64,000 nt of DNA from a virus, in the IMG/VR virus record IMGVR_UViG_3300042261_002391, positions 1 to 64,000 of that record; one strand, given 5' to 3'. Both the position numbers and the translations under genes were made by a program. The notes beneath the pieces are model-generated. The model ran no database searches. It worked only from the letters and a program-made list of their open reading frames with translations, and was not told the DNA's origin. Positions 10,269 through 60,394 of the stretch are shown piece after piece (the stretch's first letter is position 1; each line of letters opens with the position of its first letter).

Positions 10269-10310
10269 AAGGTAGGTGTGGATTATAACCACCACCCTCG
10301 AAAGACCTCG
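10269..10310 (-). ncRNA. Putative small RNA, divergent copy of the 18.5/25.9 kb element
   Basis: Directly after promoter 10323-10350, no ORF; shares TAATCCACACCTRCCTTATATT. Confidence 0.4.
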
Positions 10311-11117
10311 GCATATAGTTCTTATACGTTTCTTAAATAAAAAGGTTACAGAATTTGTAACCTATTTAGATTTTTTATTTTTAATGATATAGAAATTGTA
10401 ACCCCAAGTATTACCGGACTCACCAGCTTTTTTAATTAAAAACCTATTTGAGCTATACCAACCATTGAAATTATCTTTGGGATAGGATTCAATAGATTCT
10501 ACATGGGTTTTAATTTCATCCCAATTAACATCAATCCAATCACCATATCTTTTGATAAGTGCATCCATGTCGTCGAAGCTTTGGCTAAACCCACTATTGT
10601 TAATATCTTTAACAAAGGTATAACTAAACAAATCGATTTTTTCAACAGCATCGCTCACGAATATTAAAACCCATTCATCAACAACATCTAATTTAGCAGT
10701 AATGTTGGGGAATGTTTTTAATAGCTTCTCAACTAATTGCTGTCCTTCAAGTATGTCAATGCTTGAAGCTTTTTCGTTTACAACTGAACCATTTTCTCTT
10801 GTCGAAAATTCTAATGCTTCATCATTGTCCTCACAGTTTTCACAGTCAAAATATGAGTTTAGATTAACGAAATTAATGATGTTGTTGCGTTCCATAGTGC
10901 TTGTATTGTTGGTTATAGTTTTTATACGTTCTTAATTTAAAAAGGTTACAGGATTGTGATATTTCGGCGATATTAAACGTACATTGCCAGTATTGTGATA
11001 CTTGTACATTGCATAAAATAAAAAAGCCGATGGGTAACCACTCCCATCGGCACATAACCAATAATAAACACAAACAACATCTACAAATTGGGTTCATAGG
11101 AAGAACCCGAAGTATTT

Positions 11118-12332: not shown

Positions 12333-12474
12333 TGTGTTTGAATTTGAGGTTATGATGTGAGAAGATGTCAATTCACCATATTTGAAACTAACGAGGTTTC
12401 CCATGTTTTTATTGCTCTGCACAAACTTAAACTATTCTCACAATATCTTATACGTTTTGTTGCCGGAAAGGTTA

Positions 12475-12921
12475 CAAAAAAGAATGGTGCTCTATAATTA
12501 TCGCAACTCGGACGTATTCCGCTTCACAATAAAAAAGAGCACCATTCACATTCAGTCGTCATGGTTGGACGTACAACCTCTGAATGACCATTGCCGATTG
12601 GAGTGTCACTGTCACTGTACCCAGTTCGTTACGCTGGCTCTGGAGGGTTGCTCCCATGTTACTATACACCAATACAGCTATGTTTCTCCCGAACTTAATC
12701 GATTTCAACGGTTGGATTTCTCGCACTGGCATAGTTACTCGAAAACTTTTCAAACCCTGAACATTCCATGCGCATAGTTTGTTCTGAGGTATCGGGATTC
12801 ACGACCATTATTCGCCTTCATACTAGAATATATACTTTCATCTCCGTTCTTCTTATGCATCTTCCAAACTTTGAATCCGGCAACGCCTAGTTTACTAACT
12901 ACCCGAATTTCCTACCAGCAT
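12475..12921 (-). ncRNA. Candidate structured RNA of about 440 nt downstream of the tRNA-like element
   Basis: GC-richer than flanks, no credible ORF, ends in a GAATGGTGCTCT/AGAGCACCATTC stem plus U-tract. Confidence 0.4.
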
Positions 12922-12930
12922 TTAATTTTG

Positions 12931-13052
12931 TGGGCGCAGAAGGATTCGAACCTCCAACTCAATCCTAATCATGTTAACCTAATTAAGACCGAGATACTAA
13001 CAACCAAAGTGCACTGTCATTAGTGTGCGTTTACCAATTCCGCTATGAACCC
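12931..13052 (-). ncRNA. tRNA-like RNA (122 nt) with elongated anticodon and variable arms
   Basis: Acceptor GGGTTCA/TGCGCCC, Leu-type D arm GCGGAATTGGTAAACGC, T arm GGAGG-TTCGAAT-CCTTC; 9-bp and 14-bp inserted stems; own promoter at 13066-13093. Confidence 0.75.
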
Positions 13053-13072
13053 AAATTATACTTCTTATACGT

Positions 13073-13438
13073 TTAAGCTATTAAAAGGTTACAATGACTA
13101 TTAACTTTTTTTGGTTTATATATCATTTTACCTTCCTTATCATTCTTAATTAAAAAGAAATTATGTTTGCCGTAGAAGCCATACAATTTCTTTAGTTCTA
13201 ATCCATGTGCATTGGTAACGTGTAAAATGATTCGAACATTATGTATCTCAGCGTACTTAATAATCTCGGACAATACTGCTGAACCATAACCTTTATTTCT
13301 TTGTGATTTTTTGATGACAATTGATTGTAAACATATGTACAATCCCTGTTCATCCGTACATTGAGATAGATTCAATTCCTGAATCTTGTTTTTGAACTTG
13401 TCCTTTTTTAAATAAGAACTGAATACATCTATATCCAT
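13073..13438 (-). CDS. GNAT-family acetyltransferase-like protein
   Basis: IVIKKSQRNKGYGS motif A and FYGKHNF; GTATTTAT upstream. Confidence 0.7.
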   Translation of the reverse strand: MDIDVFSSYLKKDKFKNKIQELNLSQCTDEQGLYICLQSIVIKKSQRNKGYGSAVLSEIIKYAEIHNVRIILHVTNAHGLELKKLYGFYGKHNFFLIKNDKEGKMIYKPKKVNSHCNLLIA

Positions 13439-34476: not shown

Positions 34477-34723
34477 TTTTCACGTCCGGGGTGCAGCGTC
34501 CATGTCCCCTCATAGTTAAAAAAATTCTCTAAAAAAATTTTTAAAAATCCTAAATCATTTGCCTGATTTCCTGATACTTACGCCATTCTATTAATTTTCA
34601 CGACTAAAAAATTTTCAAAAAAAATTTGTGTGTGGCTTGTGATAATAATCTTGAAGATATTAAACGTCATATTAAAAATCTCACAAGTCATTAACGTAGT
34701 ATTTATAGATAAACATTAGTAAA

Positions 34724-47945: not shown

Positions 47946-48423
47946 TATTTTTTACGATTATTCTTACGTGATTGTTTCTGCATTTTGTTACGATTTTGAC
48001 GTTTCTTTTTGTACGCAGCATCGAATTGATTAACAGTAACATTTCCCCGGTGAACAATTGGTTTGAATTTAATTTTCGATTGTTTCAACTGTTCAATCAA
48101 AAATTCACGTTTCTGTTCTTCAGTGAGTTCTAATAGTTCTTCAGCATCAGGTACTAATTCAAATTCCGGTGAGGAAATAAAACCGTCAGCTAATTCGTTT
48201 TTTAATTCATCAACAACAGGAGCATTACTTAATACATCCTGCAAATCATCTTTTTCTCGCATATTGTAATAATTTTTAATGTCATCTAAAGTTAACTCAA
48301 TATCTGGATATACCACCTGTTCAATGTCTCGTTTACCTTTAGTCATGTAATTTATTTTTGTGTAAAAATATAAAATGTTTTTTTTATATACAAGAAAAAA
48401 GGGAGCATTGCCCCCTTTTTTAT

Positions 48424-48867
48424 TTACTTCTTGTAAAAATCACCCTTTTCGGCTTTATACACATCATATGCATCGATTGCTATTTTACGTGCTGCTATAT
48501 ATTTTTTACGTGCTTCTTGAATTTTTTCTTCCTTAAGACTTATTTTTACTGATGGTGCTGGACTTTTAAAATCCTTATACACCTCACGTTGCAAGAAGTG
48601 AAAGAAACGATTAATTGTACGCAATGTTTGTTTATTAACACAACTATTGATATTATTCTTCAATTTCTTTCTTTGGTTGAGAGATAAGTTTGTAATCATT
48701 AATGATAAAATGTTTTCATTAATGTTGAAGTTATTCAATCTCCAATTTTCAATTGCAATTTTTTCATTGATTTTTTGTACTGCGGTGTTTACACCTTTTA
48801 CTAACTCGTTTACGCTTCTGTGATTTAATACGTTATTTTCTTTTACTAAAGTTTCCATAATATACAT
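48424..48867 (-). CDS. Basic hypothetical protein downstream of the amber leader
   Basis: 147 aa; structured 5' UTR. Confidence 0.75.
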   Translation of the reverse strand: MYIMETLVKENNVLNHRSVNELVKGVNTAVQKINEKIAIENWRLNNFNINENILSLMITNLSLNQRKKLKNNINSCVNKQTLRTINRFFHFLQREVYKDFKSPAPSVKISLKEEKIQEARKKYIAARKIAIDAYDVYKAEKGDFYKK

Positions 48868-48969
48868 TTTTTATTTTTGATTATAATTTATTGAACAATA
48901 ATAATATTCCAAATTCCGATATGGAATATTTGCGATTCTCAAATCACGAATCTGGTTATAATCAAACTA

Positions 48970-49005
48970 TTATGGAGGTCTGTTGATAATCTATGTGTCT
49001 TTCAT
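48970..49005 (-). CDS. Amber-interrupted leader peptide MKDT(TAG)IINRPP
   Basis: ATG AAA GAC ACA TAG ATT ATC AAC AGA CCT CCA TAA, followed by an 11-bp inverted repeat 48956-48966/48876-48886. Confidence 0.65.
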
Positions 49006-49009
49006 ACTT

Positions 49010-49348
49010 TTAATTTTTTAATGCTAAATCTAATGATTGAGTAATTTTACGCATCTCCGGAGTACCGTAGAAGCATACAGAGGTCATTTGGTTGTCGATG
49101 TCAGGTTCGTGGAACGAAATAACATCAGCACCATTAGAAACTAATTTTGAATAAAGTTTTTGGAGTTCATCTTCATTATTAATTTCAAGTACGATAATGT
49201 AATTAGAAGCTTCATACCATCTATTAAACAATTTATTATTTTTTATCGAAAAATCAGCAATGGCATGATTTGATTGTGCAATCATTAATCCATTACTTAA
49301 ATCATTTCTAACAACAATAACTAATTTATCAATCTACTTATCTTTCAT
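49010..49348 (-). CDS. Pth2-type peptidyl-tRNA hydrolase with in-frame TAG at codon 5
   Basis: MKDK(TAG)IDKLVIVVRNDLSNGLMIAQSNHA...FHEPDIDNQMT; the conserved KLVIVVRxDL strand lies upstream of the called ATG at 49285. Confidence 0.85.
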
Positions 49349-50251
49349 AACTAAACAATTTAATTTATTAATAATATTTTCGTTATATTTTATTCTAATC
49401 ATTCTTATTTTATTTTCAAAGCAATAGTTGTTTTTTATTAAGTCCCTTCTTTTAATGTTTAAAAATTCTGACTTCCCGCCAAATGCATCAATTGGCTTAT
49501 AATGTTGAATTCCATCAAATTCAATGACAATATTTAAATCAGGTAAATAAAAATCAAATCTAAGATTACCATTATCGATACAATTATCAAATGATTTTTC
49601 TCTTATATAGAGTATATTTTCATTGTTTAAAAATTCAGCAATAATAGATTCTCCTTTTGATTCATTACATATTGGACATCCAATTCCTCTCATGTGATGT
49701 ACTGGTGCTTGTTGAAACATACCGTGATTAGGACATATTATTGTAACTTTGGTTTTATTGTTAATATAATTAACCAATGAATAGTCATACTTTCTATTAT
49801 GAATATTATTCGATGTTTCAATAAATTCTTCCTGAGATAATTTAAGTTTATTAGCCTTATATTCAATTGCGCATTTAGGACAGCCTGACTTTTTTAAAAT
49901 GTGACTTTTAGGCGTTTGTTGAAATATACCGTGTTTTTTACACTGAATTTTTATTTTGGTATAATAATTTACATAATCAACCAATGTATAATCATACGTA
50001 TCGCCATGTATCTCGACACATTTAGCAATAATATCTAATGTGGTATGCCTATTTTTTTGCAAAATTTTAGTATACCCACATTTTTTACAACCTTGACCAG
50101 CTATATGATTTTTAGGCGTTTGAAAAAAATCGCCATGAATTGGACACGTGATAATTATTTTTGTAGTGTTATTAATATATTCGACTTTATTATAGTCATA
50201 CTTATCACCATGTTTTTTTATTGCATTAAGTATAAATTTACTAGTATTCAT
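49334..50251 (-). CDS. Homing endonuclease with three DUF723-like Cys/His repeats and a C-terminal Vsr/DUF559-like PD-(D/E)xK domain
   Basis: HGDKYDY...ICPxHGxFxQ..H..GxGCxxC x3; RFDFYLPDLNIVIEFDGIQH; GTATTTATA at 50264-50272. Confidence 0.85.
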   Translation of the reverse strand: MNTSKFILNAIKKHGDKYDYNKVEYINNTTKIIITCPIHGDFFQTPKNHIAGQGCKKCGYTKILQKNRHTTLDIIAKCVEIHGDTYDYTLVDYVNYYTKIKIQCKKHGIFQQTPKSHILKKSGCPKCAIEYKANKLKLSQEEFIETSNNIHNRKYDYSLVNYINNKTKVTIICPNHGMFQQAPVHHMRGIGCPICNESKGESIIAEFLNNENILYIREKSFDNCIDNGNLRFDFYLPDLNIVIEFDGIQHYKPIDAFGGKSEFLNIKRRDLIKNNYCFENKIRMIRIKYNENIINKLNCLVMKDK

Positions 50252-50290
50252 AATATCGTTTACTATAAATACTAAGTATTTGTCTAAAAG

Positions 50291-50353
50291 ATAACCAGCT
50301 TTTAAATCCTTTCTGGTAATCGTAACTAATTTAACCTAGTGTGTGTGTCTCAT
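50291..50353 (-). pseudogene. Displaced Pth2 N-terminus MRHTH(TAG)VKLVTITRKDLKAGY
   Basis: Matches the Pth2 N-terminal motif; frame continues without stops into the endonuclease ATG at 50251. Confidence 0.7.
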
Positions 50354-50440
50354 AACTTTTAGAGTTTAATTATAAATACTATTGAATTGCAAATGTAATG
50401 AATAATTTTTAATATACAAGCAATTTCAAATAAATTTTTG

Positions 50441-50514
50441 AGATTCTAGTGGGATTCGAACCCACGATTTTCAAGTTTTAGAGACCTGTGCAATAACCAC
50501 TCTGCCATAGAACC
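50441..50514 (-). tRNA. Amber suppressor tRNA(CTA)
   Basis: GGTTCTA/TAGAATC acceptor, anticodon arm CAGGT-CTCTAAA-ACTTG, T arm GTGGG-TTCGAAT-CCCAC, U73. Confidence 0.9.
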
Positions 50515-51505
50515 ATTTAATTATTAATCAACTACGATTTCAAAATCGACATCTTTTTCACTTGAGCTGCAGTAAAATCTAAAGCTATAACCCTTATCTT
50601 TACAGGCAGCAATTAATCTGTGAGCAAATTCTTCACCACCACCATCATTTTCAGGCATTAATACCTCAATATCGTCAATTATAATCGTCTTGAATGGCGG
50701 TTCTTTAATACTATCATCATATCTTGCAATGACGCATTTTTTAATAACTTCTTCTTTAACTGTAACATCATTAAGAAGATTAAATTTATTTAAAACACTT
50801 CTCACGTTTTTATGAAATGTATTGCCATTACGAAAACTTACTGATGTTTCAGTGGGTAACACACCTAATTTACCTTCTTTATTCAGAATTGAATTTGCAG
50901 TTCCCAATGCTTTCTCTAAACGAACTACATATTCAGCTATATTGTAGATTTTATTATTCCTATTAATCTTCATTGTCTTCAAATTTAAACATTTTTTTTC
51001 GTATTATCTCGTAGTTTTTAAAGCATAAGCACATTGTTTTAAACTCTTTGCCTTCTTTAGCTACTTGATAAATATATTTTTCACCTTCTTTAATTGTTAT
51101 CTGCAAACCATTATCAATTCCCCAATCTTTTCTTTCTTCCGGGGTACTATGACTCATTATATAAACATAGCCATCACATAAACGTTCGAATTTAGATATT
51201 GGATATGTTCGTTTTAATAATTCAAAGTTTTGCATAGAACTACATTTATATACGAAACAGATTGAAAAAGGTTACAAAATATCTTTAATAATTTCATCAA
51301 ACTCTTCTGCGGTCATACTTACTTCCATTCTAAGCTCAGAAATCTTTCTTATAGCAAACACTGCTTCGCCATAAGCATCTTCATAAATAACAAATAATTG
51401 ATTGTCGTATTCGCCGGAAAATGGCTTCAACAAAGTCATTGCTGAATCTTCGTCGTAAATTGTAATTGCTTTTCTTTTATTTGACATGTTGAGTAAATTT
51501 TTTTG

Positions 51506-51591
51506 TAGCGGATACAGGATTCGAACCTGTGACTCCTTTTGGGAGTTCTGGCTTATGAGACCAGCGAGATAGTCCACTTCTCTAATCCACA
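51506..51591 (-). tRNA. tRNA(CAT), initiator-like Met, with long variable arm
   Basis: Loop CTCATAA; 1:72 mismatch; extra hairpin ACTCC-CAAAA-GGAGT. Confidence 0.85.
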
Positions 51592-51596
51592 ATGTG

Positions 51597-51688
51597 CGGA
51601 AGGTGAGGGATTCGAACCCTCGGTGCGGAGGTTCTCTCCGCACGGTAGTTTAGCAAACTACTGATTTAAGCCACTCATCCAACCTTCC
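51597..51688 (-). tRNA. tRNA-Ser(GCT)
   Basis: Loop TTGCTAA, long variable arm, G73. Confidence 0.95.
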
Positions 51689-52303
51689 TTAATTAATAAC
51701 AATATCCTTATCTGAAAAAGCTTCGCATATTTCAGTATTTGGTTTAATCCATGCTTCACCACATTCAAGCAAATATCTTGGATATAAATGCTCTTTAGCA
51801 AATTTCCTAATATGCTCACAATCTTGAAGCGATAATAACAATACCTTTTCAAGCCGTTCTGCATTATTTGCAGCCAATGCTTCGCTAACTATACTCATAC
51901 TTACTGAACATTAAAGTTTTTCAATATAAATGGATTTGGTTTACCTTTACATTCCGATAAATACCAAGGCAACAACTTTCTTCTCGCAAATGCACTAACA
52001 GCACTTCTAATATCACTCCAATCTGAACCGTTCATTGCATCAAGAATAAGCCTTTCCAAGATTTGAGATGTTTCATATTGTACTTCAGATTTGCTTGCTT
52101 TAATTGTATTTTCAACTAATGTCTGTTCATAGGCTTCTTCAAGAGTATCGCCCGGATAATACCAATGTGGACATAAATGAGCTTCAATACCAAGTGTTTC
52201 GGCTTCATGCTCCCATTCAGGTTTTTCCCACCTATTTGTACGTTTATTTAAACACCAACCATTTTCGATTAGATATTGTTCTCTTTCAAGATTTGTTTTC
52301 ATA

Positions 52304-52528
52304 TTATTCAACTTTTACGTGTTTCAATGAATCACATGGAACACAAGTTATCGATGAATATGAACCGCCTTGTGTGCTAACGCTATTAACAACAGCATAG
52401 CATAAGCCAGTCCGTTCATCTTTAAAATATGTCAAATTTTTCTTAACCTGTTTAATATCTGTTTCTTCACTCATTTGACATGAGGCAACAAAAAATACCA
52501 ATAATAACAATGCAATCTTTTTCATACC
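52304..52528 (-). CDS. Small lipoprotein
   Basis: MKKIALLLLVFFVASC lipobox. Confidence 0.65.
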   Translation of the reverse strand, partial: GMKKIALLLLVFFVASCQMSEETDIKQVKKNLTYFKDERTGLCYAVVNSVSTQGGSYSSITCVPCDSLKHVKVE

Positions 52529-52565
52529 ATTCTTTTTGCAATTATACGAAAACAATTTGAAATTG

Positions 52566-53261
52566 TTACAACTTTTTCAATAAATTTTTATTTTCATTTC
52601 TTTTTTCTCTTCTTTTAGTTCTCCCGTTACCCTTATTTAATGCACCATATGTCGGTGTTAATGAATGGCAATTAGGACATAATAATTCTAAATTATTCAA
52701 GCTATTATTGTCAGAATTTCCATCTTTATGTTCTAATTGTATTGGTACTAATCCAGTAGTTTGATTAATTTCATGCCATCCACACTTCATACATTTATCA
52801 CCACATTTAAATATTAAATATTTTTTATATGTATCTGAGCTATATGTTGTGTTACCCGATTCGATATTATTGAAAATTAAATTTTGTTTATATGTATTAC
52901 TACATTCAACAGAACAAAATTTATTTTGATTACTGTTTAAATCATTTCCACAATTTAAACATTTTTTTAGCTTTACAAAATTGCTCACTCTTTTAGGATA
53001 TTTTCTATTATTATATTTAGCACTACACGACCTACAACAAAATTTTCTACTATCATTAATCATTCCGATAAATTCGCCACCACAATTTAAGCAAACAATC
53101 TTTTCACGTATATTAGATGTATTTTGTTTATATCCTAATTTATTTAATTTAACTTGAACGCTCCTAAAACTACGATTTAATTCTTTAGCGATTCCTTCAA
53201 GTCTCATACCTGATTTATTCAAAAAAACAGCTTTTTCAATATCTTCTTTCGACCATTTCAT
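52566..53261 (-). CDS. HNH homing endonuclease with HTH and zinc-finger N-terminus
   Basis: CMKCG...LEHKDGNSDNNSLNNLELLCPNCH. Confidence 0.9.
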   Translation of the reverse strand: MKWSKEDIEKAVFLNKSGMRLEGIAKELNRSFRSVQVKLNKLGYKQNTSNIREKIVCLNCGGEFIGMINDSRKFCCRSCSAKYNNRKYPKRVSNFVKLKKCLNCGNDLNSNQNKFCSVECSNTYKQNLIFNNIESGNTTYSSDTYKKYLIFKCGDKCMKCGWHEINQTTGLVPIQLEHKDGNSDNNSLNNLELLCPNCHSLTPTYGALNKGNGRTKRREKRNENKNLLKKL

Positions 53262-53319
53262 AATATATAATTTATTATAAATACTATAAAATGCGAAAAA
53301 AGATTTTCGAAACTAATTG

Positions 53320-53393
53320 TGCGGGTAAAGGGAGTCGAACCCTCTCTATTTCTGCTTGGCAAGCAGATGCACCACCAACTATGCGTCACCCGC
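53320..53393 (-). tRNA. tRNA-Gly(GCC)
   Basis: TCTGC-TTGCCAA-GCAGA. Confidence 0.92.
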
Positions 53394-53695
53394 AAATTAG
53401 CAGGAATTACTTCCTGCAATTTTTTTTAAGGCATGAGCCTAAATGTTAGCTTATTTCTAAGTTTTGGATTGCCAACCCAATACACATATTCTTCAGCTTT
53501 TTCATAAGCATAGAATTGGGAAATAGCTTTAACATAGAACGTTAGAACTTCACCACTCGTAAGCGTGAATTCTACCAACCAATATTTCATTGGTTGTTTT
53601 TCGATAACCTTTTTTGAATTCTTCATTCTTGCAATTTATCAGATAATCTGATAAACTACGAACTGTTAACTTTTCTCATACTCATTATTACATTG

Positions 53696-53771
53696 AACGT
53701 CTGGAGGGATTCGAACCCTCATGTATCCAATTACACTTCTCTACGTTCGTAGCGTAGCGTGATACAGACGC
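53696..53771 (-). tRNA. Atypical tRNA-Arg(ACG) lacking a D arm, with a D-loop-like hairpin in the variable position
   Basis: GCGTCTG-TATCACG-CTACG CTACGAA CGTAG-AGAA-GTGTA ATTGGA TACAT-GAGGG TTCGAAT CCCTC-CAGACGT. Confidence 0.75.
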
Positions 53772-53775
53772 ATGT

Positions 53776-54366
53776 TTATTTTTTTCTGTTTTCGTATTTT
53801 AAGTATCTTTCTTTTCTTGCAGAATTTTTATTTTTAGATGTAAATGTATCCAATTGACTATTACAATTAGAACAAACTAATCGTAAATTTTCTCGTTTAT
53901 TATTTGAAGCATCACCGTTAATATGGTCTAGCACAAATACTAAAGGTTTCCCATTCCAAAAATTTTCAATACCACAAATCGCACATTTATTATCTTGTTC
54001 TTTTAATACGTGTTTTTTTACAAACACAGGCATATAATCGGCTCTACAATATTTTTCGTTATTTTTTAAAAAATCTTCGTATTTTATTTTTGCCTTATAT
54101 TCAAACTCACATGTTTTATTACAATATTTCCCACAATAATAATCACATTCTTTACCACAATTAAGACAATAAACAATCTTTTTTTTACCCTTATTTGCTG
54201 GAACAAAATTAATTGGGAATTTAGCTCTCCTTGGTAATGAAATTCCTAAACTATTACATATTTTTTTTATATATGTATCGGAAACATTATACATTTTACC
54301 GATTTCACGATATGTTTTTTTTTCAACAAAAATTAAATTTTCTAATTCTTCTTTAATGTATTTCAT
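53776..54366 (-). CDS. HNH homing endonuclease
   Basis: CAICG...LDHINGDASNNKRENLRLVCSNCN. Confidence 0.9.
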   Translation of the reverse strand: MKYIKEELENLIFVEKKTYREIGKMYNVSDTYIKKICNSLGISLPRRAKFPINFVPANKGKKKIVYCLNCGKECDYYCGKYCNKTCEFEYKAKIKYEDFLKNNEKYCRADYMPVFVKKHVLKEQDNKCAICGIENFWNGKPLVFVLDHINGDASNNKRENLRLVCSNCNSQLDTFTSKNKNSARKERYLKYENRKK

Positions 54367-54449
54367 AATATTTTTTTATATAAATACTATGAATATTAAA
54401 ATCGAACTAAAAAATCAAAAATAAATTTTATTGTTATTGGTTCGATTAG

Positions 54450-54521
54450 TAGGGATTAGAGGATTCGAACCTTTACAATTTTGTTAGGAACAAAATATGC
54501 TATCCATTACATCAAACCCCC
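54450..54521 (-). tRNA. tRNA-Arg(CCT)
   Basis: TTTTG-TTCCTAA-CAAAA. Confidence 0.9.
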
Positions 54522-54649
54522 ATTTAATTTTCATCTGTTTTAATTGGTATATAAATAACCTCACCGCAACATAAACCATAGTCACTTCCATTAATTGGAG
54601 CTACTGGTTGATTACATTTAGGACAATATGCCATATGTTTTAAATTTAG

Positions 54650-54721
54650 TAGGAATTAGAGGATTCGAACCTCTACGATTTCGTTAGAAGCGAAATATGC
54701 TATCCATTACATCAAATCCCC
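54650..54721 (-). tRNA. tRNA-Arg(TCT)
   Basis: TTTCG-CTTCTAA-CGAAA; close paralogue of the Arg(CCT) gene. Confidence 0.92.
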
Positions 54722-55027
54722 GTTAGTGAACATTACCCTATTACCTATAGAGGCAAATATTATTTCTTTCTAAAGAAAACTTTTAATGGGTTTAATTTAG
54801 CAAAGATAAAGTAGAGTATAAAGAAAAATAGAGACAATAGGTAGAAAATAGAAATTGAAAACCAATAACTTCCCGTTGTGTCTATTAACCACTTCAGAAT
54901 AGCGTCGTAACCCATAGGATTGAAAAATGTTCCTAAAAAGAGGAACAGAGTCGCTAGTTTCTCCCTGTTTATTACCTTCATCACTTTCCATATTTTTCGA
55001 ATTAATAAATGTAATTTTTTTCATATG

Positions 55028-55101
55028 AGCCGAGGACAGGACTCGAACCTGCAACTTCCTGATTACAAGTCAGGCACTCTACCAATTAAAGTTACCTCGG
55101 C
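55028..55101 (-). tRNA. tRNA-Thr(TGT)
   Basis: CCTGA-CTTGTAA-TCAGG. Confidence 0.95.
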
Positions 55102-55550
55102 ATTGTTCTTTCTTTTCGACCATTTCCACGATTAGCACCTTTATATGTTGGTGTTAAACTATGACAATTAGGACATAAAAGTTTTAAATTTTCTTCTTTA
55201 TTATTCAAATAATTACCATCAATATGTTCGATTTCCAACGGTATTTTACCAGTGTATTGATTAACTTCAGACCATCCGCATTCAGAGCATTTGTTGGAGA
55301 ATTTTTCAAATATATATCTTTTAATGTGACATGATAATTGATATTCACCTCTCATTCCATCAACTAATCCAGCTTTCCATTTATCGATATACTCCAGATA
55401 TTTAATATCTGCGCCAATTTTTGCTTTTTCAGATGAATGTAATTTTGAGCAATCTTTGCAATATACCACCTTCCATTTTTTTATTTCGGAAGGTCTTCGA
55501 TAGATTGGTTTATTACAATCACTACAATTACAATTTGGTTTTCTCACCAT
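55092..55550 (-). CDS. HNH homing endonuclease; stop codon lies inside the tRNA-Thr 5' end
   Basis: CSECG...IEHIDGNYLNNKEENLKLLCPNCH. Confidence 0.9.
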   Translation of the reverse strand: MVRKPNCNCSDCNKPIYRRPSEIKKWKVVYCKDCSKLHSSEKAKIGADIKYLEYIDKWKAGLVDGMRGEYQLSCHIKRYIFEKFSNKCSECGWSEVNQYTGKIPLEIEHIDGNYLNNKEENLKLLCPNCHSLTPTYKGANRGNGRKERTMPR

Positions 55551-55567
55551 ATTTATTTTCTATTTTG

Positions 55568-55639
55568 AGCCGACTATTGGAATCGAACCAATATTTACGG
55601 GTTACAAAGCCGTAGTAATAACCGTTATACGAAGTCGGC
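55568..55639 (-). tRNA. tRNA-Thr(TGT), divergent second copy
   Basis: ACGGC-TTTGTAA-CCCGT (one mismatch); GCCGACT/AGTCGGC acceptor. Confidence 0.8.
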
Positions 55640-56377
55640 ATTTGTTATATTATATGACCAATTCTCTCTTTCACATGTGCTTTATATCTTTCGATATTTC
55701 TAACACTACCACGTGTTGCCGGGTGATAAATGAATTCATGCGATATTTGGTGCTTTTTAAGCTCTTTTTCGACCTTTCTGCCCATTGCTATTACAACACC
55801 ATTAAATGATTGAATATCGTTTATATCATCTTCAAATACGTTTTTAAACTCACATTCATTCCAATCAATTCCAATGTTTTCAACTGCTTTTGATAAATGT
55901 GCTGCAGCTAATCGCTTATCAACCCAAGTAACATTCATTCTAATTGCAGTATTACTTCTTCTTTCTCCGACAAATAAAAATCGTTTCATATTATTAATTG
56001 TTAATCATTTCGTTTTTAGATTCCAAAAATTTTTCTAAAATCAATTCCTTCCTGAATGTTGTTGTTACATATTCATCAATTTTATTCAAAGTTAGGTTTT
56101 TAATTAGTTCTTCAACAGTAATGTATTTACCTTCAGAATAAACCATTGGTGGATATGAAACACCTTTCCAAATACGTGGAGTAAAATATTTTACTCCCAG
56201 CCTTGCCCAACCATAGATTGCAATTTCTTTTGGTCTAATATTGGTGATTTTTTGGCATTCACTACAATAGCATAAAGAAACCGGAGCATAATCAGTAGAA
56301 TAAACACCTTCACTTTCCCGTTCTTCACAAAAATCACAAATTGTTGCGTTATTCATTCTTTTTATTTAAAAAGTTTG

Positions 56378-56449
56378 CGCTCCGAGGGAATTACGATATC
56401 CCAACCCTCACTTTAACAGAGTGACGCTCTACCTTTGAGCTACCGAAGC
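56378..56449 (-). tRNA. tRNA-Asn(GTT) with atypical T loop ATCGTAA
   Basis: TCACT-CTGTTAA-AGTGA; G73. Confidence 0.85.
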
Positions 56450-56631
56450 ATTTGTTTTAAACATCATCGATGTCTTTTTGTTTTTTCCTATCATACTTCT
56501 TTTTTGATGTATGAATTTTGTTTACTGTCACCCAACCAGTGGAATTTTCTAGTTCGGCTTCTCTCGACCCTTTTCTCGATGCGAGAACATAGTCCGATAG
56601 TTTCTTCTTTTTCATTTCACTAGTTTTTTTG

Positions 56632-56703
56632 CGCCCCGAATAGGACTCGAACCTATAATCTATTGGTTAACAGCCAATTGCTTCACCATTAAGCTATCGG
56701 AGC
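56632..56703 (-). tRNA. tRNA-Asn(GTT)
   Basis: ATTGG-CTGTTAA-CCAAT. Confidence 0.95.
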
Positions 56704-57396
56704 ATTGTTTATTTTTTCATGTAATTCAATATGACAATTAGCACATAGTAATATACATTTATCCACTTCTTTTTTTAAACGTTCGATTGAATAACTTTTA
56801 CCACTAACCGTAAAATCTTTCATATTTGGATTGGTGTGATGAAATTGTAACACACTTATTGACTTATCATATCCACAAATTTCACACTTACCTCCCTTAT
56901 ATTGAATTAACTCAATTTTTTTTCGCTTTCTCCATTCAATAACTGATTGAGATTTTGTTTTTGTCTTTTCCCTCTTAAATATTTTCAAATCGGGTATTAA
57001 TTTTCTCAAAGTATCTCTACTGGTATTAAAATGCTTTGCAGTTAATCTTAGTGATTTTACGGTATTATAGTATGTAATAATCTCATCAACATCAAATCTT
57101 TTTTTTACAGTATTAATTGGTTTATTTAACTTATATTTTCTACATATTTTAATTAACTTATCTTCACTAATGTCAACTATTTTAAGTATTTCATCATATG
57201 TTTTTTCTTCAATCCTTAATTTTTTTATTAATTCGATTGTCCTTTCATCAACGCCAAATAAAAAACTGTTAATATTACCACCAAGACCAGCATTATTTAA
57301 ATGATATGATACCGTACTTTTACTACAATTTAAGTTTTTGGCGATTTCATTAATACTTTTACCCCTTTTCCTTAATTCTAAAATTTTTTCTTTCAT
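56689..57396 (-). CDS. HNH homing endonuclease with HTH repeats; 3' end overlaps tRNA-Asn
   Basis: GGKCEICGY...LQFHH...KCILLCANCH..LH. Confidence 0.9.
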   Translation of the reverse strand: MKEKILELRKRGKSINEIAKNLNCSKSTVSYHLNNAGLGGNINSFLFGVDERTIELIKKLRIEEKTYDEILKIVDISEDKLIKICRKYKLNKPINTVKKRFDVDEIITYYNTVKSLRLTAKHFNTSRDTLRKLIPDLKIFKREKTKTKSQSVIEWRKRKKIELIQYKGGKCEICGYDKSISVLQFHHTNPNMKDFTVSGKSYSIERLKKEVDKCILLCANCHIELHEKINNAPIA

Positions 57397-57485
57397 ATTA
57401 TTAATACCGATGATTAACATCTTTTGTTAATAAATACGTATAACTGCAAAAAAGTTCGATTCTTTATCACAAAATTAATATTTTA

Positions 57486-57557
57486 GCTCTCGTATTGGAC
57501 TCGAACCAATCCCGCCCTGCTTCACGCAGAGTGTACCTTCCACTATACGAACGAAAT
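57486..57557 (-). pseudogene. Degenerate tRNA, possibly His(GTG)-derived
   Basis: D and T arms intact; anticodon arm CTCTG-CGTGAAG-CAGGG lacks U33; C73. Confidence 0.55.
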
Positions 57558-57656
57558 AACTACTACTCAACTTCACCGCTAAATTCCATTTTTTGTAGAG
57601 AACATAAATCTAATCAATGATGTTAGCGCATCATGTTTCAACTTCCAATTCTTTTG

Positions 57657-57730
57657 TAGTGAGGGTGAGGGTCGAACTCACACATCTTTTGCTTATAAGA
57701 CAAATGCCGTCACCATTTAGCTACCTCACC
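57657..57730 (-). tRNA. tRNA-Ile(TAT)
   Basis: TTTGT-CTTATAA-GCAAA; A73. Confidence 0.88.
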
Positions 57731-57951
57731 ATTTATTAACTACCATTCAATAGTAACATCTTTTACTGATTCAACATCAATTTCATGATAATATTTCCTA
57801 TGTTTTTTATTGAAAAGAGTGCTTCTAATATTATTAAAACTACAATCACTTGGGCAATGAATTAGTGCAGTTCCATTTCCTTTTTCTTCCGTGCCTTGAC
57901 AATAATATGTATAGGTATATTCAAGTAAAACATATTTCCATTCCATAACAA

Positions 57952-58353
57952 CTAACTTAAAATTTGTTTTACAATATTACTTACAATAATGTTATCAGCT
58001 TTTCCTTTGTACAGTGCATTAAATTTGCCCATTATCATTCCGAATGATTTCATGTCCAATGCGATTGCATAATCAGCAATAATTGAATCAACTGCTATCT
58101 TAATTTCATCATCAGACATTAATTCTGGTAAATATGCAGCATAGAAATTAGCTTCCTCGATATTTGAACATTCAATCGCCGAATTTTTCATTTGTTTCAA
58201 TACTTCAAACGCAACTGAATCGGGAAGATTTGTAGTCCCTTTACGCTGTAATTCACTTTTAATCATTTTCAAACGATTGATTAGCACGTTGTCACGATTT
58301 TTTTCTGCAAGTGCTTGTTTCAATTCTTCATTTACTTTTTCCTGCAATAGCAT
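57952..58353 (-). CDS. GatB/YqeY domain protein
   Basis: LKMIKSELQ...YLPELMSDDEI...GMIMG...GKAD. Confidence 0.8.
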   Translation of the reverse strand: MLLQEKVNEELKQALAEKNRDNVLINRLKMIKSELQRKGTTNLPDSVAFEVLKQMKNSAIECSNIEEANFYAAYLPELMSDDEIKIAVDSIIADYAIALDMKSFGMIMGKFNALYKGKADNIIVSNIVKQILS

Positions 58354-58427
58354 AGTTTCAATTTTTAAATTAACACACAAAATTAACTAAATAATTCAAT
58401 CTACCAAAATATTTGATAAATTTTTTG

Positions 58428-58501
58428 AGCAGCATCCCGGATTTGAACCGAGACCTCAACCTTGGAAGGGTCATATGCTAACCGTTAAACACCAATGCTG
58501 C
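58428..58501 (-). tRNA. tRNA-Gly(TCC)
   Basis: TGACC-CTTCCAA-GGTTG; U73. Confidence 0.93.
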
Positions 58502-58572
58502 TTATGTGATAAAGAGATAATCAATATGAAGCAATTAAATCGACATACCTCGAACTTTCCGTCATTACCTCG

Positions 58573-59634
58573 CTATAATGTCCGGGAGTTTATCTCTTCA
58601 CATTTTAAGTTAATTAAATCATCATAACTATATTCTTTATTTTCAAGTATTAATAATACAGAAAACCCCAACTTAATATATTCATTAAACTTATCAATAA
58701 TATTATTTTTATTTAATGTAAATTTTGATTTAATTTCAATTATTTTATTTTCATGAGGAATATAAAAATCTGGGATTGCTACTCTATATTTTTTATTAGA
58801 TGAATCCCAATATTTAATTCTAAAATACTCTACTTCATAATCAATTTTATTATTATCTAAATTAATTGCAAAATTTAATTCATATGAACTTCTATAGTAT
58901 ATTTTTTTTCCGTTCCATGTTTCATGCCAGCCATGTTTATATTGGTATTTAGTCTCTGAACTTAAAACATTATTGTTTAACTTACCTATCAAACATGCGT
59001 TAATTTCACTCTCGGATAGATTTCTAGTTTTAATACCAAATGATTTTAATATATGCAATATATTTTCAGAATTTTTATTATAATTATATTTAATTGCAAT
59101 ATCTTTAGGTGATAAATTATTGTCAAAATATTCCTTTAACAATAACTCCCTTATCCTATAATACTCTTCAAATATTTTCAATGTTCCAACAGAATCCAAA
59201 TCAAACCCAAATTCAATTAAATTATTAAACCATTTTTTTGAGTGTTTACATATTTCAATATTTACACATTTTTCCTGTCCACAAATTTTACATAATTTAG
59301 GTTTGTTATTTTTTTGTGACTTTATCGATAAAGTATTTTTTATTTTGTTCTTAGTTGCTTCACTCACTATTCTAATTTGATTATTGAATTTAGCTGAACA
59401 TGAATGTGAACAAAAATTAAGTTGTCTTTTATTCAATGAAGTATTACAAAATTTACATTTATTAGTACATTCAACTCTTCGTCGATTATATGTATTTAAG
59501 TCAAAACCAACAGATTTTGCAATATTTTTCAACTTTAAAATACCTGCAGAATTATCTGAAAATCCAAAATAAACATACGCTTCTGTTCTACTATTAAAAC
59601 TATTTAAAATATCAAACATTTTGCTATTTTCCAT
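58573..59634 (-). CDS. Putative homing endonuclease with TnsA-N-like PD-(D/E)xK domain
   Basis: YRSSYE...IPDFY...IIEIKS; N-terminal CxxC...FCSxSC; GTATTTAT upstream. Confidence 0.75.
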   Translation of the reverse strand: MENSKMFDILNSFNSRTEAYVYFGFSDNSAGILKLKNIAKSVGFDLNTYNRRRVECTNKCKFCNTSLNKRQLNFCSHSCSAKFNNQIRIVSEATKNKIKNTLSIKSQKNNKPKLCKICGQEKCVNIEICKHSKKWFNNLIEFGFDLDSVGTLKIFEEYYRIRELLLKEYFDNNLSPKDIAIKYNYNKNSENILHILKSFGIKTRNLSESEINACLIGKLNNNVLSSETKYQYKHGWHETWNGKKIYYRSSYELNFAINLDNNKIDYEVEYFRIKYWDSSNKKYRVAIPDFYIPHENKIIEIKSKFTLNKNNIIDKFNEYIKLGFSVLLILENKEYSYDDLINLKCEEINSRTL

Positions 59635-59731
59635 ACTAAAGTTTATAATAAATACTTACTTTAGCGGAAAAAACACGTTATGAGCCAAATATAATAAACA
59701 TATTTCCAAGGTTCATAATAATCATATTTCG

Positions 59732-59804
59732 TTGGAAAGGTGGAAATCGAATCCACTTAAACGGTTTTTCAAACCGTCAGATACACCACGTCTCTCACTT
59801 TCCA
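59732..59804 (-). tRNA. tRNA-Phe(GAA), atypical D arm
   Basis: ACGGT-TTGAAAA-ACCGT. Confidence 0.8.
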
Positions 59805-59841
59805 ATATTAAATTTCACATATAAAGAAATTCATATAAAAA

Positions 59842-59996
59842 TGGTTCTGGTGTGAGCCTCCTACTCACGTCTCCCGATGATATTTCGACCATCATAAATG
59901 TCTCGGAGATTATTGATGTATCAAACCGTATTGCCAAGTACGTTTACATTAACTTTCTACTGAACATTAGGTCAGCCTCTTATGCAATCCAGAACC
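59842..59996 (-). ncRNA. Candidate structured RNA of about 155 nt within the tRNA array
   Basis: Terminal stem GGTTCTGG/CCAGAACC; T-arm-like GTGAG-TAGGAGG-CTCAC; internal TCTCCG/CGGGAGA stem. Confidence 0.55.
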
Positions 59997-60070
59997 TTCA
60001 CATCTAAAGATTCATGACTTCTTTTCGATGCACAAACCAAAACGATGGTGTCCTATCCATTTTGGTTTTG

Positions 60071-60165
60071 AGGAAGAAGTCGGACTCGAACCGACACACC
60101 ACGTTCTTCACATGATTACTCGTAGTTTTCAAGACTACTCCCTTACCAATTAGGGTTATTCTTCC
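60071..60165 (-). tRNA. tRNA-Ser(TGA)
   Basis: GTAGT-CTTGAAA-ACTAC; long variable region. Confidence 0.9.
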
Positions 60166-60175
60166 ATTATTATCG

Positions 60176-60256
60176 TAGTGATGGTGGGATTCGAACCCAC
60201 ATTACCTTACGGTACACCTTATCAGGGTGCTGCCTTAACCAATCGACCACATCACT
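60176..60256 (-). tRNA. tRNA-Ile(GAT) with extra variable hairpin
   Basis: GCACC-CTGATAA-GGTGT followed by ACC-GTAA-GGT. Confidence 0.88.
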
Positions 60257-60319
60257 ATATTTTAGTAATACTATGCATTAATTATTGAAAAGCGATAATT
60301 TTCGCATAATATTACTATG

Positions 60320-60394
60320 AGCACGGAGTGGGATTTGAACCCACGACTTTACAGTTTTGCAGACTGTTGCCTTTGACCACTCGACCATCCGTGC
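60320..60394 (-). tRNA. tRNA-Cys(GCA), copy 2, first gene of the array
   Basis: Near-identical to 29121..29195. Confidence 0.95.

What the first reader, a model, noticed from the sequence alone, without database searches (positions are those of the whole stretch)
48424..50514. Amber-gated operon: suppressor tRNA(CUA) followed by three ORFs with TAG at codon 5-6, including Pth2
Seen: directly downstream of an intact tRNA(CTA) lie MRHTH-TAG-VKLVTITRKDL (50353), MKDK-TAG-IDKLVIVVRNDL...AQSNHA (49348, full Pth2) and MKDT-TAG-IINRPP (49005), all in TAG-RTT context. The two Pth2 N-termini are highly diverged yet both keep the early TAG. Elsewhere TAG is a normal stop (10362, 13495, 20290, 21313, 57740, 57952), so this is not genome-wide recoding. 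Established: Pth recycles dropped-off peptidyl-tRNA, and very short ORFs promote drop-off. Inference: Pth2 is made only when UAG is read through (suppressor active or RF1 limiting), a termination-sensing feedback analogous to RF2 frameshift autoregulation.
Basis: partly seen in the sequence, partly recalled or inferred. Interest (0 to 1): 0.9.

Follow-up and report, generated by a model that had tools for sequence, protein, structure and literature searches.

The report
Suppressor-tRNA-gated phage Pth2 operon
A giant freshwater phage that otherwise uses the normal genetic code puts a UAG stop a few codons into a tRNA-hydrolase-like gene and into a tiny leader peptide, next to its own UAG-reading tRNA. 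These genes are therefore probably made only while that tRNA overrides the stop, a natural translation switch I found described in no paper.

Summary
An intact tRNA(CUA) at 50514..50440 is followed on the same strand by three ATG-(3-4 codons)-TAG starts, while TAG ends 22 of 142 other ORFs.

The three starts are different things:
- The start at 50353 is the relic 5' end of the Pth2 gene, cut off by a homing-endonuclease (HE) cassette.
- The start at 49348 is the working Pth2-fold gene. Its gate TAG is also the endonuclease's stop codon.
- The start at 49005 is a conserved 10-codon leader ending Arg-Pro-Pro-stop. Its last codons pair with the start codon of the next gene.

In 80 related phage loci, 74 keep an early in-frame stop with no canonical start behind it, and at least 56 carry the matching suppressor tRNA within 6 kb. 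Two loci have switched to TAA in both gates and carry tRNA(UUA) instead. Complete relatives are not recoded.

Best reading (0.75): the Pth2-like protein and the downstream gene are translated only when the phage tRNA decodes the gate.

Exceptions: three complete genomes show no detectable suppressor, and one leader gate is mismatched.

This scan has noted the Pth2/tRNA pairing before on other genomes. My literature searches found no published description.

The parts
50440..50514 (-). tRNA(CUA), the amber suppressor that acts as the 'key'
   Evidence: ARAGORN cloverleaf with anticodon cta and discriminator U73. Rfam tRNA 59.3 bits. In an alignment of 34 homologous or analogous phage suppressor tRNAs, 18 of 19 stem pairs show compensatory changes and the CUA anticodon is invariant, except for two with UUA.
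50371..50380 (-). Promoter-like motif AGTATTTATA, 17 nt upstream of ATG 50353
   Evidence: The motif occurs 6 times in the window against 0.86 expected, each time 12-17 nt upstream of a start codon. The same motif precedes Pth2 in complete relatives G001 and G002. Its function as a promoter is inferred.
50294..50353 (-). Relic 5' end of the ancestral Pth2 gene: ATG, four codons, gate TAG 50338..50336, then 14-15 Pth2 codons. It runs in frame into the endonuclease ORF.
   Evidence: Sequence. The peptide VKLVTITRKDLKAGY matches the family consensus. A contig of a relative joins 50294 to 49179 with 109 nt between, in frame, with no endonuclease. Relatives L061-L063 share the layout, with a more decayed relic.
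49334..50251 (-). Homing endonuclease gene (305 aa) with its own AGTATTTATA motif at 50273..50264. Its stop codon is the Pth2 gate TAG.
   Evidence: PHROG 559/681/9084 HNH/homing endonuclease, E 6e-78. Pfam DUF723, treble-clef and CapR repeats. Only this part of the region matches unrelated phages at DNA level. Presence/absence polymorphism. In L061 the endonuclease stops at a TGA overlapping the Pth2 ATG; an indel before the ATG puts it in frame here.
49010..49348 (-). Working Pth2-fold gene: ATG 49348, AAA GAT AAG, gate TAG 49336..49334, then 107 codons to TAA 49012..49010
   Evidence: Pfam PF01981 at 40 bits against a cut-off of 23. AlphaFold model pLDDT 94.6. Foldseek top 13 PDB hits are all Pth2/Bit1, TM 0.71-0.84. 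All family-invariant residues are present. The next canonical start lies 16 codons after the gate.
48970..49005 (-). Amber-gated leader mini-ORF MKDT-TAG-IINRPP-TAA (gate 48993..48991)
   Evidence: The pattern M-K-x-x-stop-(I/V/M)-x-x-R-(P/S/G/A/D)-P-stop is found directly after Pth2 in about 39 of 80 loci and once per genome. Arg and Pro codons vary synonymously across loci. The gate covaries with the tRNA anticodon in L069 and L103.
48968..48976 (-). 5' arm of a long-range RNA helix: last Pro codon, stop codon and 2 nt of the leader
   Evidence: A 9-bp perfect helix with 48862..48854 appears in the MFE fold (z -2.3). Positions -3..+6 are paired in 18-22 of 22 distinct loci, with AT/TA/GC covariation at +4..+7. 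Duplex energy is a median -9.8 against -1.9 kcal/mol for control windows.
48854..48862 (-). 3' arm of the helix; it covers the start codon ATG 48858..48856 of gene X
48424..48858 (-). Gene X, a conserved small helical protein of unknown function (144 aa from METLVK; the ORF listing start ATG 48867 is probably not used)
   Evidence: Homologues follow the leader in at least 22 loci and start ATTATT-ATG-GAA-AC. The model is all-helical with pLDDT 82 and has no PDB match. No Pfam or PHROG family.
48395..48421 (-). Intrinsic terminator closing the unit
   Evidence: It is the only terminator-like site in 48200..50700: a 12-bp stem followed by a T run.

Best explanation
This is a small translation 'lock and key' carried by a standard-code jumbo phage. 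The key is the phage's own amber-suppressor tRNA(CUA).

Lock 1 is a UAG placed 2-5 codons after the ATG of a Pth2-fold, peptidyl-tRNA-hydrolase-like gene. Ribosomes that start at that ATG make only a tiny peptide unless the tRNA inserts an amino acid at UAG. The inserted residue lies in the unstructured tail before strand b1, so its identity hardly matters.

Lock 2 is a UAG at codon 5 of a 10-codon leader. Only a ribosome that reads through reaches the Arg-x-Pro-stop end. There it sits on, and unwinds, a helix that otherwise buries the AUG of the next gene (X). Termination after Pro is slow, which should hold the helix open.

The Pth2-like enzyme and protein X are therefore made only when, and in proportion as, the phage tRNA is expressed, charged and out-competes RF1.

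In this window a homing endonuclease has inserted into the 5' end of the Pth2 gene. The insertion left a relic first gate and brought a second copy of the gate. Readthrough would also extend the endonuclease.

Shown here: the anatomy, the conservation, the covariation, the fold and the helix. Inferred: that the tRNA is charged and decodes the gates, the arrest at Arg-x-Pro-stop, and what the system is for. My guess at its purpose is dosing and timing of tRNA-acting functions to the presence of the suppressor.
For: 1. The early in-frame stop is kept in 74 of 80 related loci. These fall into 62 clusters at 90% identity and 32 at 70%. ATG is mostly 2-4 codons before the stop, and no ATG/GTG/TTG lies between the stop and the conserved core.
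2. The same arrangement occurs in cultured phages of distant hosts. Yersinia fHe-Yen9-03 and Pectobacterium CBB have SD-ATG-2 codons-TAG, and the gene is unannotated or annotated truncated. Mycobacterium Bixzunavirus and Xanthomonas XacN1 ORF364 also have it.
3. Covariation of lock and key: L069 and L103 have TAA in the Pth2 gate and in the leader gate, and carry tRNA(UUA). A sister locus, L080, has a tRNA of the same family with CUA, and TAG in both gates.
4. A suppressor of matching anticodon lies within 6 kb in 56 of 74 gated loci by ARAGORN. Four more have ARAGORN-negative CUA anticodon arms with T arms. Both Rak2-like cultured phages, G001, G002 and G007 each carry one.
5. The genomes are not recoded. 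Code-11 coverage is 0.91-0.92, and TAG ends 6-15% of genes.
6. Pth2 is the only ORF with an unexplained early TAG in three genomes.
7. The protein needs its first residues: strand b1 is residues 3-9 after the gate.
8. The base after the gate is a purine in 74 of 74 loci. That is the context known to favour amber suppression in E. coli (my own knowledge: Bossi 1983). It is a purine at only 38% of ordinary TAG stops.
9. The leader/gene X helix shows compensatory changes, and there is peptide-level selection on R-x-P-stop.
Against: - Nothing is experimental. Expression, charging and decoding by the tRNA are all inferred.
- Three complete genomes with a TAG-gated Pth2 (G006, G008, G009) showed no tRNA(CUA) at any place that Rfam's tRNA model hits.
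- In L088/G010 the leader gate is TAA, but the only suppressor in a complete genome is CUA.
- Some clades have a conventional start just after the gate: GTG in Bixzunavirus, with SD spacing that fits the GTG; ATG four codons later in XacN1; and the cases L090 and L115.
- AUU, a weak start codon, follows the gate in 29 of 62 contexts, including this window's working copy.
- Ordinary TAG-terminated genes show no sign of protection against readthrough. Their median extension is 7 codons, the same as after TAA. An efficient suppressor would therefore lengthen 6-15% of the phage's proteins.
- The purine after the gate is confounded with the conserved Ile/Val residue at that position.
Confidence: 0.75

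Rival explanations
1. No suppression is needed. ATG-x-TAG is a minimal upstream ORF, and ribosomes terminate and re-initiate (or initiate directly) at the codon after the TAG. That codon would be AUU, AUA or GUG acting as a weak start, so the tiny uORF merely tunes Pth2 translation.
For: - AUU, AUA or AUC follows the gate in 36 of 62 contexts.
- Bixzunavirus has ATG-TAG-GTG with SD spacing that fits the GTG.
- L011 has an out-of-frame uORF whose TAG overlaps a GTG start.
- Three complete genomes lack a detectable tRNA(CUA).
Against: - The uORF is in frame with Pth2 in all 74 gated loci, which re-initiation does not require.
- GUA, GUU, AAU, GAA or GGC follow the gate in about 24 of 62 contexts, and these are not start codons.
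- The stop is TAG rather than the far commoner TAA, except exactly where the tRNA is UUA.
- The leader gate is followed by six sense codons that are conserved at the peptide level.
Confidence: 0.1
2. The phage is partly recoded (TAG read as an amino acid in late genes, 'code 15'). Pth2 is just one of many genes with in-frame TAG, most of which lie outside the 27% of the genome in hand.
For: - Only 88 kb of an estimated 330 kb or so is available for this phage.
- Suppressor tRNAs are typical of recoded phages (10.1101/2021.08.26.457843).
Against: - Two complete relatives with the same module (365 kb and 328 kb) are fully standard-code. Coverage is 0.905 and 0.920 under code 11, with no gain from reading TAG as sense. 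No long gene has an internal TAG except same-frame neighbours.
- TAG ends 22 of 142 ORFs in this record.
Confidence: 0.03
3. The TAGs are damage. The Pth2 gene was broken by the homing-endonuclease insertion or by nonsense mutation and is decaying, and the repeated ATG-...-TAG motifs are duplication debris.
For: - An endonuclease did insert here and left a relic copy.
- Gene callers skip or truncate the gene in cultured phages.
Against: - The gate is present in relatives without the endonuclease.
- The coding body keeps all invariant residues and folds with pLDDT 94.6.
- The stop is conserved across proteins only 35-60% identical and covaries with the tRNA.
Confidence: 0.02

Closest known systems
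Stop-codon-recoded phages with their own suppressor tRNAs (TAG read as Gln, 'code 15'; crAss-like, Lak and others; Borges et al., 10.1101/2021.08.26.457843)
   Same: A phage-encoded tRNA(CUA) makes in-frame TAGs readable in a standard-code host. In-frame stops are proposed to delay expression of particular genes until the tRNA is present.
   Different: There, dozens to hundreds of late genes are recoded and TAG is no longer used as a stop. Here the genome is standard-code and TAG still ends 6-15% of genes. Only one gene and one leader carry a single TAG each, always within the first 2-9 codons.
prfB (RF2) autoregulation through an early in-frame UGA
   Same: An early in-frame stop codon in a translation-factor gene makes its synthesis depend on how that stop is decoded.
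   Different: - prfB needs a +1 frameshift and senses its own product.
- Here the gate is in frame and is read by a separate tRNA gene.
- No feedback from the Pth2-like product on UAG decoding has been shown.
Engineered amber-suppressor logic gates
   Same: The output protein is made only if both its mRNA and a suppressor tRNA are present. This is the same two-input logic.
   Different: That system is synthetic. This one is natural, conserved across many phage lineages, and coupled to a second gate that works through a leader peptide.
Leader-peptide control by ribosome arrest: SecM/secA, ermCL, TnaC, and RAPP/RAGP arrest peptides (PMC10951233, PMC7897499)
   Same: A short upstream ORF ends in an Arg-x-Pro type motif. 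A ribosome paused at its end would open an RNA helix that hides the start of the next gene.
   Different: - The pause site here is a stop codon after Pro, not a Pro-tRNA in the A site.
- The leader is only 10 codons long and carries an internal UAG gate.
- Arrest has not been tested.
Lambda bar minigenes and Pth (my own knowledge)
   Same: Two- to five-codon ORFs ending in a stop produce short peptidyl-tRNAs that drop off and need peptidyl-tRNA hydrolase. Without the suppressor, the gate is such a minigene.
   Different: bar minigenes are separate from pth and toxic only in Pth-poor cells. Here the minigene is fused in frame to a Pth2-like gene.

Membership tests
Pth2 (PF01981, archaeal/eukaryotic-type peptidyl-tRNA hydrolase) | Sequence match above the curated cut-off | tested here: met
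   PF01981 at 40 bits against a cut-off of 23, E 5e-10. The family profile against PDB sequences gives 2zv3 Pth2 at E 1e-9.
Pth2 (PF01981) | Pth2 alpha/beta fold | tested here: met
   Model pLDDT 94.6. Foldseek top hits are 2zv3, 1wn2, 1q7s, 3erj and 1xty, TM 0.76-0.84, prob 1.0.
Pth2 (PF01981) | Catalytic residues of characterised Pth2: the Lys of the GKGK loop and the Asp of DAG (residue numbering from my own knowledge of the S. solfataricus enzyme) | tested here: inconclusive
   The Asp equivalent (the EPD motif), the Thr, and the Q..H of AQxxHA are invariant in the phage family. The Lys position is Leu here and Tyr, Ala or Asp in relatives, with a 2-residue deletion in that loop.
Pth2 (PF01981) | Hydrolysis of peptidyl-tRNA | not testable with these tools
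   Needs an enzyme assay. I therefore call it 'Pth2-like'.
Amber suppressor tRNA | Canonical cloverleaf with anticodon CUA in a 7-nt loop (U33, purine 37) | tested here: met
   The loop is CUCUAAA. Stem covariation across 34 phage suppressors.
Amber suppressor tRNA | Is aminoacylated and decodes UAG | not testable with these tools
   Only indirect evidence: the gate codon and the anticodon covary (TAA with UUA). The amino acid is unknown. The nearest paralogue here is tRNA-Cys at 74% identity with U73, but there is no consistent nearest type across genomes.
Stop-codon-recoded (code 15) phage | In-frame TAG in many genes, TAG not used as a stop, higher coding density under code 15 | tested here: not met
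Free-standing homing endonuclease | Endonuclease family match plus presence/absence polymorphism at a conserved gene | tested here: met
   PHROG 559, E 6e-78. A relative's contig lacks 50293..49180. L061-L063 share the insertion. No group I intron or other Rfam element is present.
RAPP/RAGP-type ribosome arrest peptide | Arg at -3 and Pro (or Gly) at -1 relative to the A site, upstream of a regulated gene | tested here: met
   R-(P/S/G/A/D)-P-stop in about 39 loci, conserved through synonymous codon changes. A helix links the leader to the gene X start.
RAPP/RAGP-type ribosome arrest peptide | Demonstrated translation arrest; A-site Pro-tRNA | tested here: not met
   The A-site codon is a stop, not Pro, so this is not a member in the strict sense. 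Arrest itself is not testable with these tools.
prfB-like autoregulation | The product controls decoding of its own in-frame stop; +1 frameshift | tested here: not met
   The gate is in frame with no shift site. Feedback by the product is not testable here.

The most novel reading that the evidence does not exclude
The module is a closed homeostat for nonsense suppression. The UAG gates measure how strongly the phage tRNA is overriding RF1. The two outputs, the Pth2-like enzyme and protein X, act back on that tRNA or its products, for example by deacylating it or hydrolysing its peptidyl form, or by modulating RF1. UAG readthrough in the infected cell would then be held at a set level, useful to the phage but tolerable for its own TAG-terminated genes. 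That would be a natural, trans-acting analogue of RF2 autoregulation. It would also explain why standard-code jumbo phages keep suppressor tRNAs at all.
Probability: 0.2. Interest if true: 0.9.

Novelty: new variant of a known kind. Interest (0 to 1): 0.8.

Why it matters
- It gives a concrete target for suppressor tRNAs of standard-code jumbo phages. The XacN1 paper states that none could be found (PMC5852040). XacN1 ORF364 has the gate.
- It is a natural gene-specific tRNA-operated switch, the logic that synthetic biologists built by hand. It comes with a second, leader-peptide version whose RNA helix and arrest-like motif can be tested directly.
- It shows that gene callers systematically miss or truncate this gene.
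- It may be the smallest step on the road to stop-codon recoding.
- Several carriers are cultured (CBB, fHe-Yen9, Serratia BF, XacN1, Bixzunavirus), so the idea can be tested at the bench now.

Tried and rejected
- Genome-wide or block recoding: rejected.
- Initiator-type tRNA(CUA) starting at UAG: rejected. The tRNA has a G1-C72 pair and no three G-C pairs in the anticodon stem, and an upstream ATG is conserved.
- Group I intron or other known RNA around the endonuclease: none found.
- Identity of the inserted amino acid from the nearest tRNA paralogue: no consistent answer.
- Signs that ordinary TAG stops are shielded from readthrough, by tandem stops or a pyrimidine at +4: none significant.
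- Gene X function: no Pfam, no PHROG, no PDB fold match. The protein atlas could not be reached.
- Expression: no RNA holder was listed for this stretch, and the metatranscriptome run that was laid gave nothing. This is no evidence either way.
- Other candidate TAG-containing ORFs in the window (12382..13104 on the + strand; 10257..10895): no family match, so treated as chance.
- Search for tRNA(CUA) in G006, G008 and G009: none found with ARAGORN, including relaxed and intron modes, or with an anticodon-arm pattern scan of the loci.
- tRNA(UUA) in G010 to explain L088's TAA leader gate: none found.
- Literature: six full-text searches plus reading of five papers found no description of an amber-gated Pth2 or leader.
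Full report
WHAT IS THERE. The window is 64 kb of an 88.5-kb IMG/VR virus record. It has 32% G+C, CheckV estimates about 27% completeness, and it is found in freshwater and lake metagenomes. ARAGORN finds 19 tRNA genes in the window. On the minus strand the region reads as follows:
- tRNA(CUA), 50514..50440.
- A promoter-like motif AGTATTTATA, 50380..50371.
- ATG 50353, four codons, TAG 50338..50336, then 15 codons that match the N-terminus of the phage Pth2 family.
- In the same frame, a 305-aa homing endonuclease (ATG 50251, with its own AGTATTTATA motif), whose last codons are ATG AAA GAT AAG TAG (49348..49334).
- A complete 107-codon Pth2 domain, 49333..49010.
- A 10-codon mini-ORF MKDT-TAG-IINRPP-TAA, 49005..48970.
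- A 111-nt spacer.
- A 144-aa ORF starting METLVK at 48858.
- The only intrinsic terminator of the region, 48421..48395.

THE GATE IS CONSERVED. A first scan gave 13 related loci. In 12 of them the Pth2 homologue is preceded in frame by ATG, one to three codons (15 in L003) and TAG. A profile scan gave 80 loci, mostly on 40-510-kb phage contigs.
- In 74 of the 80, the first in-frame stop upstream of the conserved KLV..R.DL core lies 0-8 codons away. An ATG lies 1-9 codons before that stop (2 in 42 loci, 3 in 19, 4 in 7). No ATG, GTG or TTG lies between the stop and the core.
- These loci fall into 62 clusters at 90% and 32 at 70% protein identity.
- The stop is TAG in 72 and TAA in 2.
- The same layout is present in cultured phages of unrelated hosts. 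Yersinia fHe-Yen9-03 has GAGGAA-6 nt-ATG TCT CAC TAG, with no gene annotated. Pectobacterium CBB has GAGGAA-6 nt-ATG GCA CAA TAG, annotated from an internal Met. Mycobacterium phage IkeLoa has ATG TAG GTG. Xanthomonas XacN1 ORF364 has AGAGGA-8 nt-ATG AAG TAG, annotated from an ATG four codons later.

NOT A RECODED GENOME. I fetched two complete relatives that carry the module, G001 (364.7 kb) and G002 (327.7 kb). Under code 11 they are 90.5% and 92.0% coding, reading TAG as sense adds nothing, and TAG ends 31 of 528 and 27 of 419 ORFs. I listed every ORF that gains an early in-frame TAG when TAG is read through. All but Pth2 have an ordinary ATG, GTG or TTG start within 0-20 codons after the TAG, preceding their coding body. 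For Pth2 the next canonical start is 70, 38 and 16 codons downstream in G001, G002 and this record.

THE PROTEIN NEEDS ITS FIRST RESIDUES. The family model has pLDDT 94.6, and strand b1 is residues 3-9 after the gate. Its best PDB neighbours are all Pth2/Bit1 structures, TM 0.76-0.84, and the profile also finds them by sequence. Starting at ATG 49285 would remove b1 and half of helix 1. The family keeps the Q..H and Asp/Thr motifs of Pth2. It lacks the loop lysine, which is Leu here and Tyr in most relatives, so I call it Pth2-like and leave the substrate open.

THE KEY.
- A tRNA with anticodon CUA lies within 6 kb of the gene in 54 of 72 TAG-gated loci (ARAGORN). Four further loci have CUA anticodon arms with T arms that ARAGORN misses.
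- Both Rak2-like cultured phages have exactly one tRNA(CUA), 3.1-3.7 kb downstream. G001 and G002 have one each. G007 has one 46 kb away.
- The tRNAs are diverse in sequence but keep the cloverleaf: 18 of 19 pairs show compensatory changes, and the anticodon is invariant.
- The decisive observation is covariation. L069 and L103 have TAA in the Pth2 gate, TAA in the leader gate, and tRNA(UUA). L080 has a tRNA of the same family with CUA, and TAG in both gates; its Pth2 is 67% identical to that of L069. A tRNA(CUA) cannot read UAA, so three sites changed together.

THE THIRD 'ORF' IS A LEADER.
- The pattern M-K-x-x-stop-(I/V/M)-x-x-R-(P/S/G/A/D)-P-stop follows Pth2 in about 39 of the 80 loci. 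It occurs once in each of three genomes, against 0.1-0.55 expected by chance.
- Arg is encoded by AGA, CGA, AGG or CGU, and the prolines by all four codons. Selection therefore acts on the peptide.
- Folding the window's RNA pairs UCCAUAAUA (last Pro codon, stop, two bases) with UAUUAUGGA (the start codon of gene X). The helix is 9 bp, and the MFE z-score is -2.3.
- I anchored 22 distinct loci on the stop codon and on the AUG. Position i of the stop region pairs with position -i of the start region. Positions -3..+6 are paired in 18-22 of 22 loci. The positions free of coding constraint (+4..+7) switch among A-U, U-A, G-C and G-U.
- Duplex energies have a median of -9.8 kcal/mol, against -1.9 for neighbouring control windows.
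- A ribosome that stops at the gate ends 15 nt short of the helix. One that reads through comes to rest on the helix.
- Arg at -3 and Pro at -1 recall the RAPP/RAGP arrest motifs (PMC10951233). Pro-stop is a slow termination context (my own knowledge). I therefore infer a pause that exposes the AUG of gene X.
- Gene X is conserved, helical, and without any known family or fold.

THE ENDONUCLEASE.
- Only the endonuclease part matches unrelated phages at DNA level.
- L061-L063 are the closest relatives of the working Pth2 copy (60% identity). They have the same order: gate and relic, endonuclease, second gate, Pth2. The relic there is more decayed, and the endonuclease stops at a TGA overlapping the Pth2 ATG. 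An indel just upstream of the Pth2 ATG puts the window's endonuclease in frame, so its stop is the gate TAG.
- A contig from a wastewater metagenome joins 50294 to 49179 with 109 other bases between. This gives 42+109+170 nt after the TAG, which is in frame: an uninterrupted Pth2 using the window's first gate (one contig of depth about 5).
- So 'two diverged N-termini that both keep the TAG' has a simple explanation. The insertion brought a foreign 5' third of Pth2, with its own gate, and left the resident one as a relic.

WHAT SPEAKS AGAINST, AND WHAT IS OPEN.
- No experiment bears on this.
- Three complete genomes with a gated Pth2 showed no tRNA(CUA) anywhere that Rfam's tRNA model hits. 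Two of them have odd tRNA-like genes with long inserts 1-2 kb upstream.
- L088/G010 has a TAA leader gate but only tRNA(CUA).
- Some clades have a usable start just behind the gate, and AUU follows it in 29 of 62 contexts. Leaky, suppressor-independent synthesis is therefore possible.
- Ordinary TAG stops are not visibly protected.
- The purpose of the system is unknown.

PRIOR NOTICE. The scan's own notes hold this pairing many times on other genomes. I re-derived the core claims independently and added four things: the TAA/UUA triple covariation, the leader-gene X helix, the endonuclease history, and the XacN1 case. Six literature searches and five papers gave no published description.

Noticed in passing
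window 49180..50293 (minus strand): A homing-endonuclease cassette, with its own promoter-like motif, is inserted after about codon 20 of the Pth2 gene. It sits together with a foreign copy of the first 51 or so Pth2 codons. A relative's contig lacks the whole block.
   Followed up: yes
window 3483..3492, 34698..34707, 50264..50273, 50371..50380, 53276..53285, 54379..54388: AGTATTTATA occurs 6 times (0.86 expected), each time 12-17 nt upstream of a start codon and with no Shine-Dalgarno sequence. It is probably the phage's promoter with very short leaders, which would fit a Bacteroidota-type host.
   Followed up: partly
window 48424..48858 (minus strand): Gene X is a conserved Lys-rich helical protein of 105-147 aa that always follows the gated leader. 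It comes in two length classes that share the N-terminus ME(T)xxK and an NQRK motif. No family or fold match was found.
   Followed up: partly
L072, L077, L081, L092 and others, about 17 nt after the leader stop; window 48952..48930 (degenerate): A second conserved hairpin, an 11-bp perfect stem (GATTCGCAATT / AATTGCGAATC), lies between the leader and gene X. Other loci have different palindromes at the same place. No T run follows, so it is not an obvious terminator.
   Followed up: no
L088 (record G010, 325.9 kb, complete): The leader gate is TAA, while the Pth2 gate is TAG and the genome's only suppressor is tRNA(CUA). Either the leader is dead there or something else reads UAA.
   Followed up: yes
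L099:4975-5104, 5250-5336, 5458-5523; L107:4976-5079; L126:4209-4368: Clusters of tRNA-like genes with long inserts in the anticodon or variable region lie 0.5-2 kb upstream of gated Pth2 genes. They occur in a clade where a canonical tRNA(CUA) is weak or undetected.
   Followed up: partly
L162:940-1800 (Xanthomonas phage XacN1, AP018399 243735..244595): In XacN1 the gated gene is a 286-aa fusion of an N-terminal domain with the Pth2-like domain. It is annotated as 'hypothetical protein ORF364' from an internal ATG. The published paper reported no target for the phage's two tRNA(CUA) genes.
   Followed up: partly
L011 (record G004, 436 kb, GC-rich): This Pth2 homologue has no in-frame TAG. An out-of-frame uORF (MAHAGV) ends in a TAG that overlaps its GTG start, and two tRNA(UCA) genes lie 2.5 kb downstream.
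   Followed up: no
L060:7065-7823, L061:6415-7230, L064:6419-7189, L066:6416-7165: A second mobile-looking ORF of 250-271 aa, starting MI(N/D/E)KLNLKE, is inserted next to the module. It lies either between Pth2 and the leader or after the leader. The locus seems to be a hot spot for selfish genes.
   Followed up: no
window 12422..13073: A 650-nt gap in the minus-strand gene array holds only a plus-strand frame with two in-frame TAGs (12382..13104). It has no PHROG match.
   Followed up: partly
window 51505..60394: A dense tRNA island with duplicated species (Thr-UGU x2, Asn x2, Ser-UGA x2, Cys x2 across the window) and two long Ser-type tRNAs. The whole record holds 39 tRNAs.
   Followed up: no
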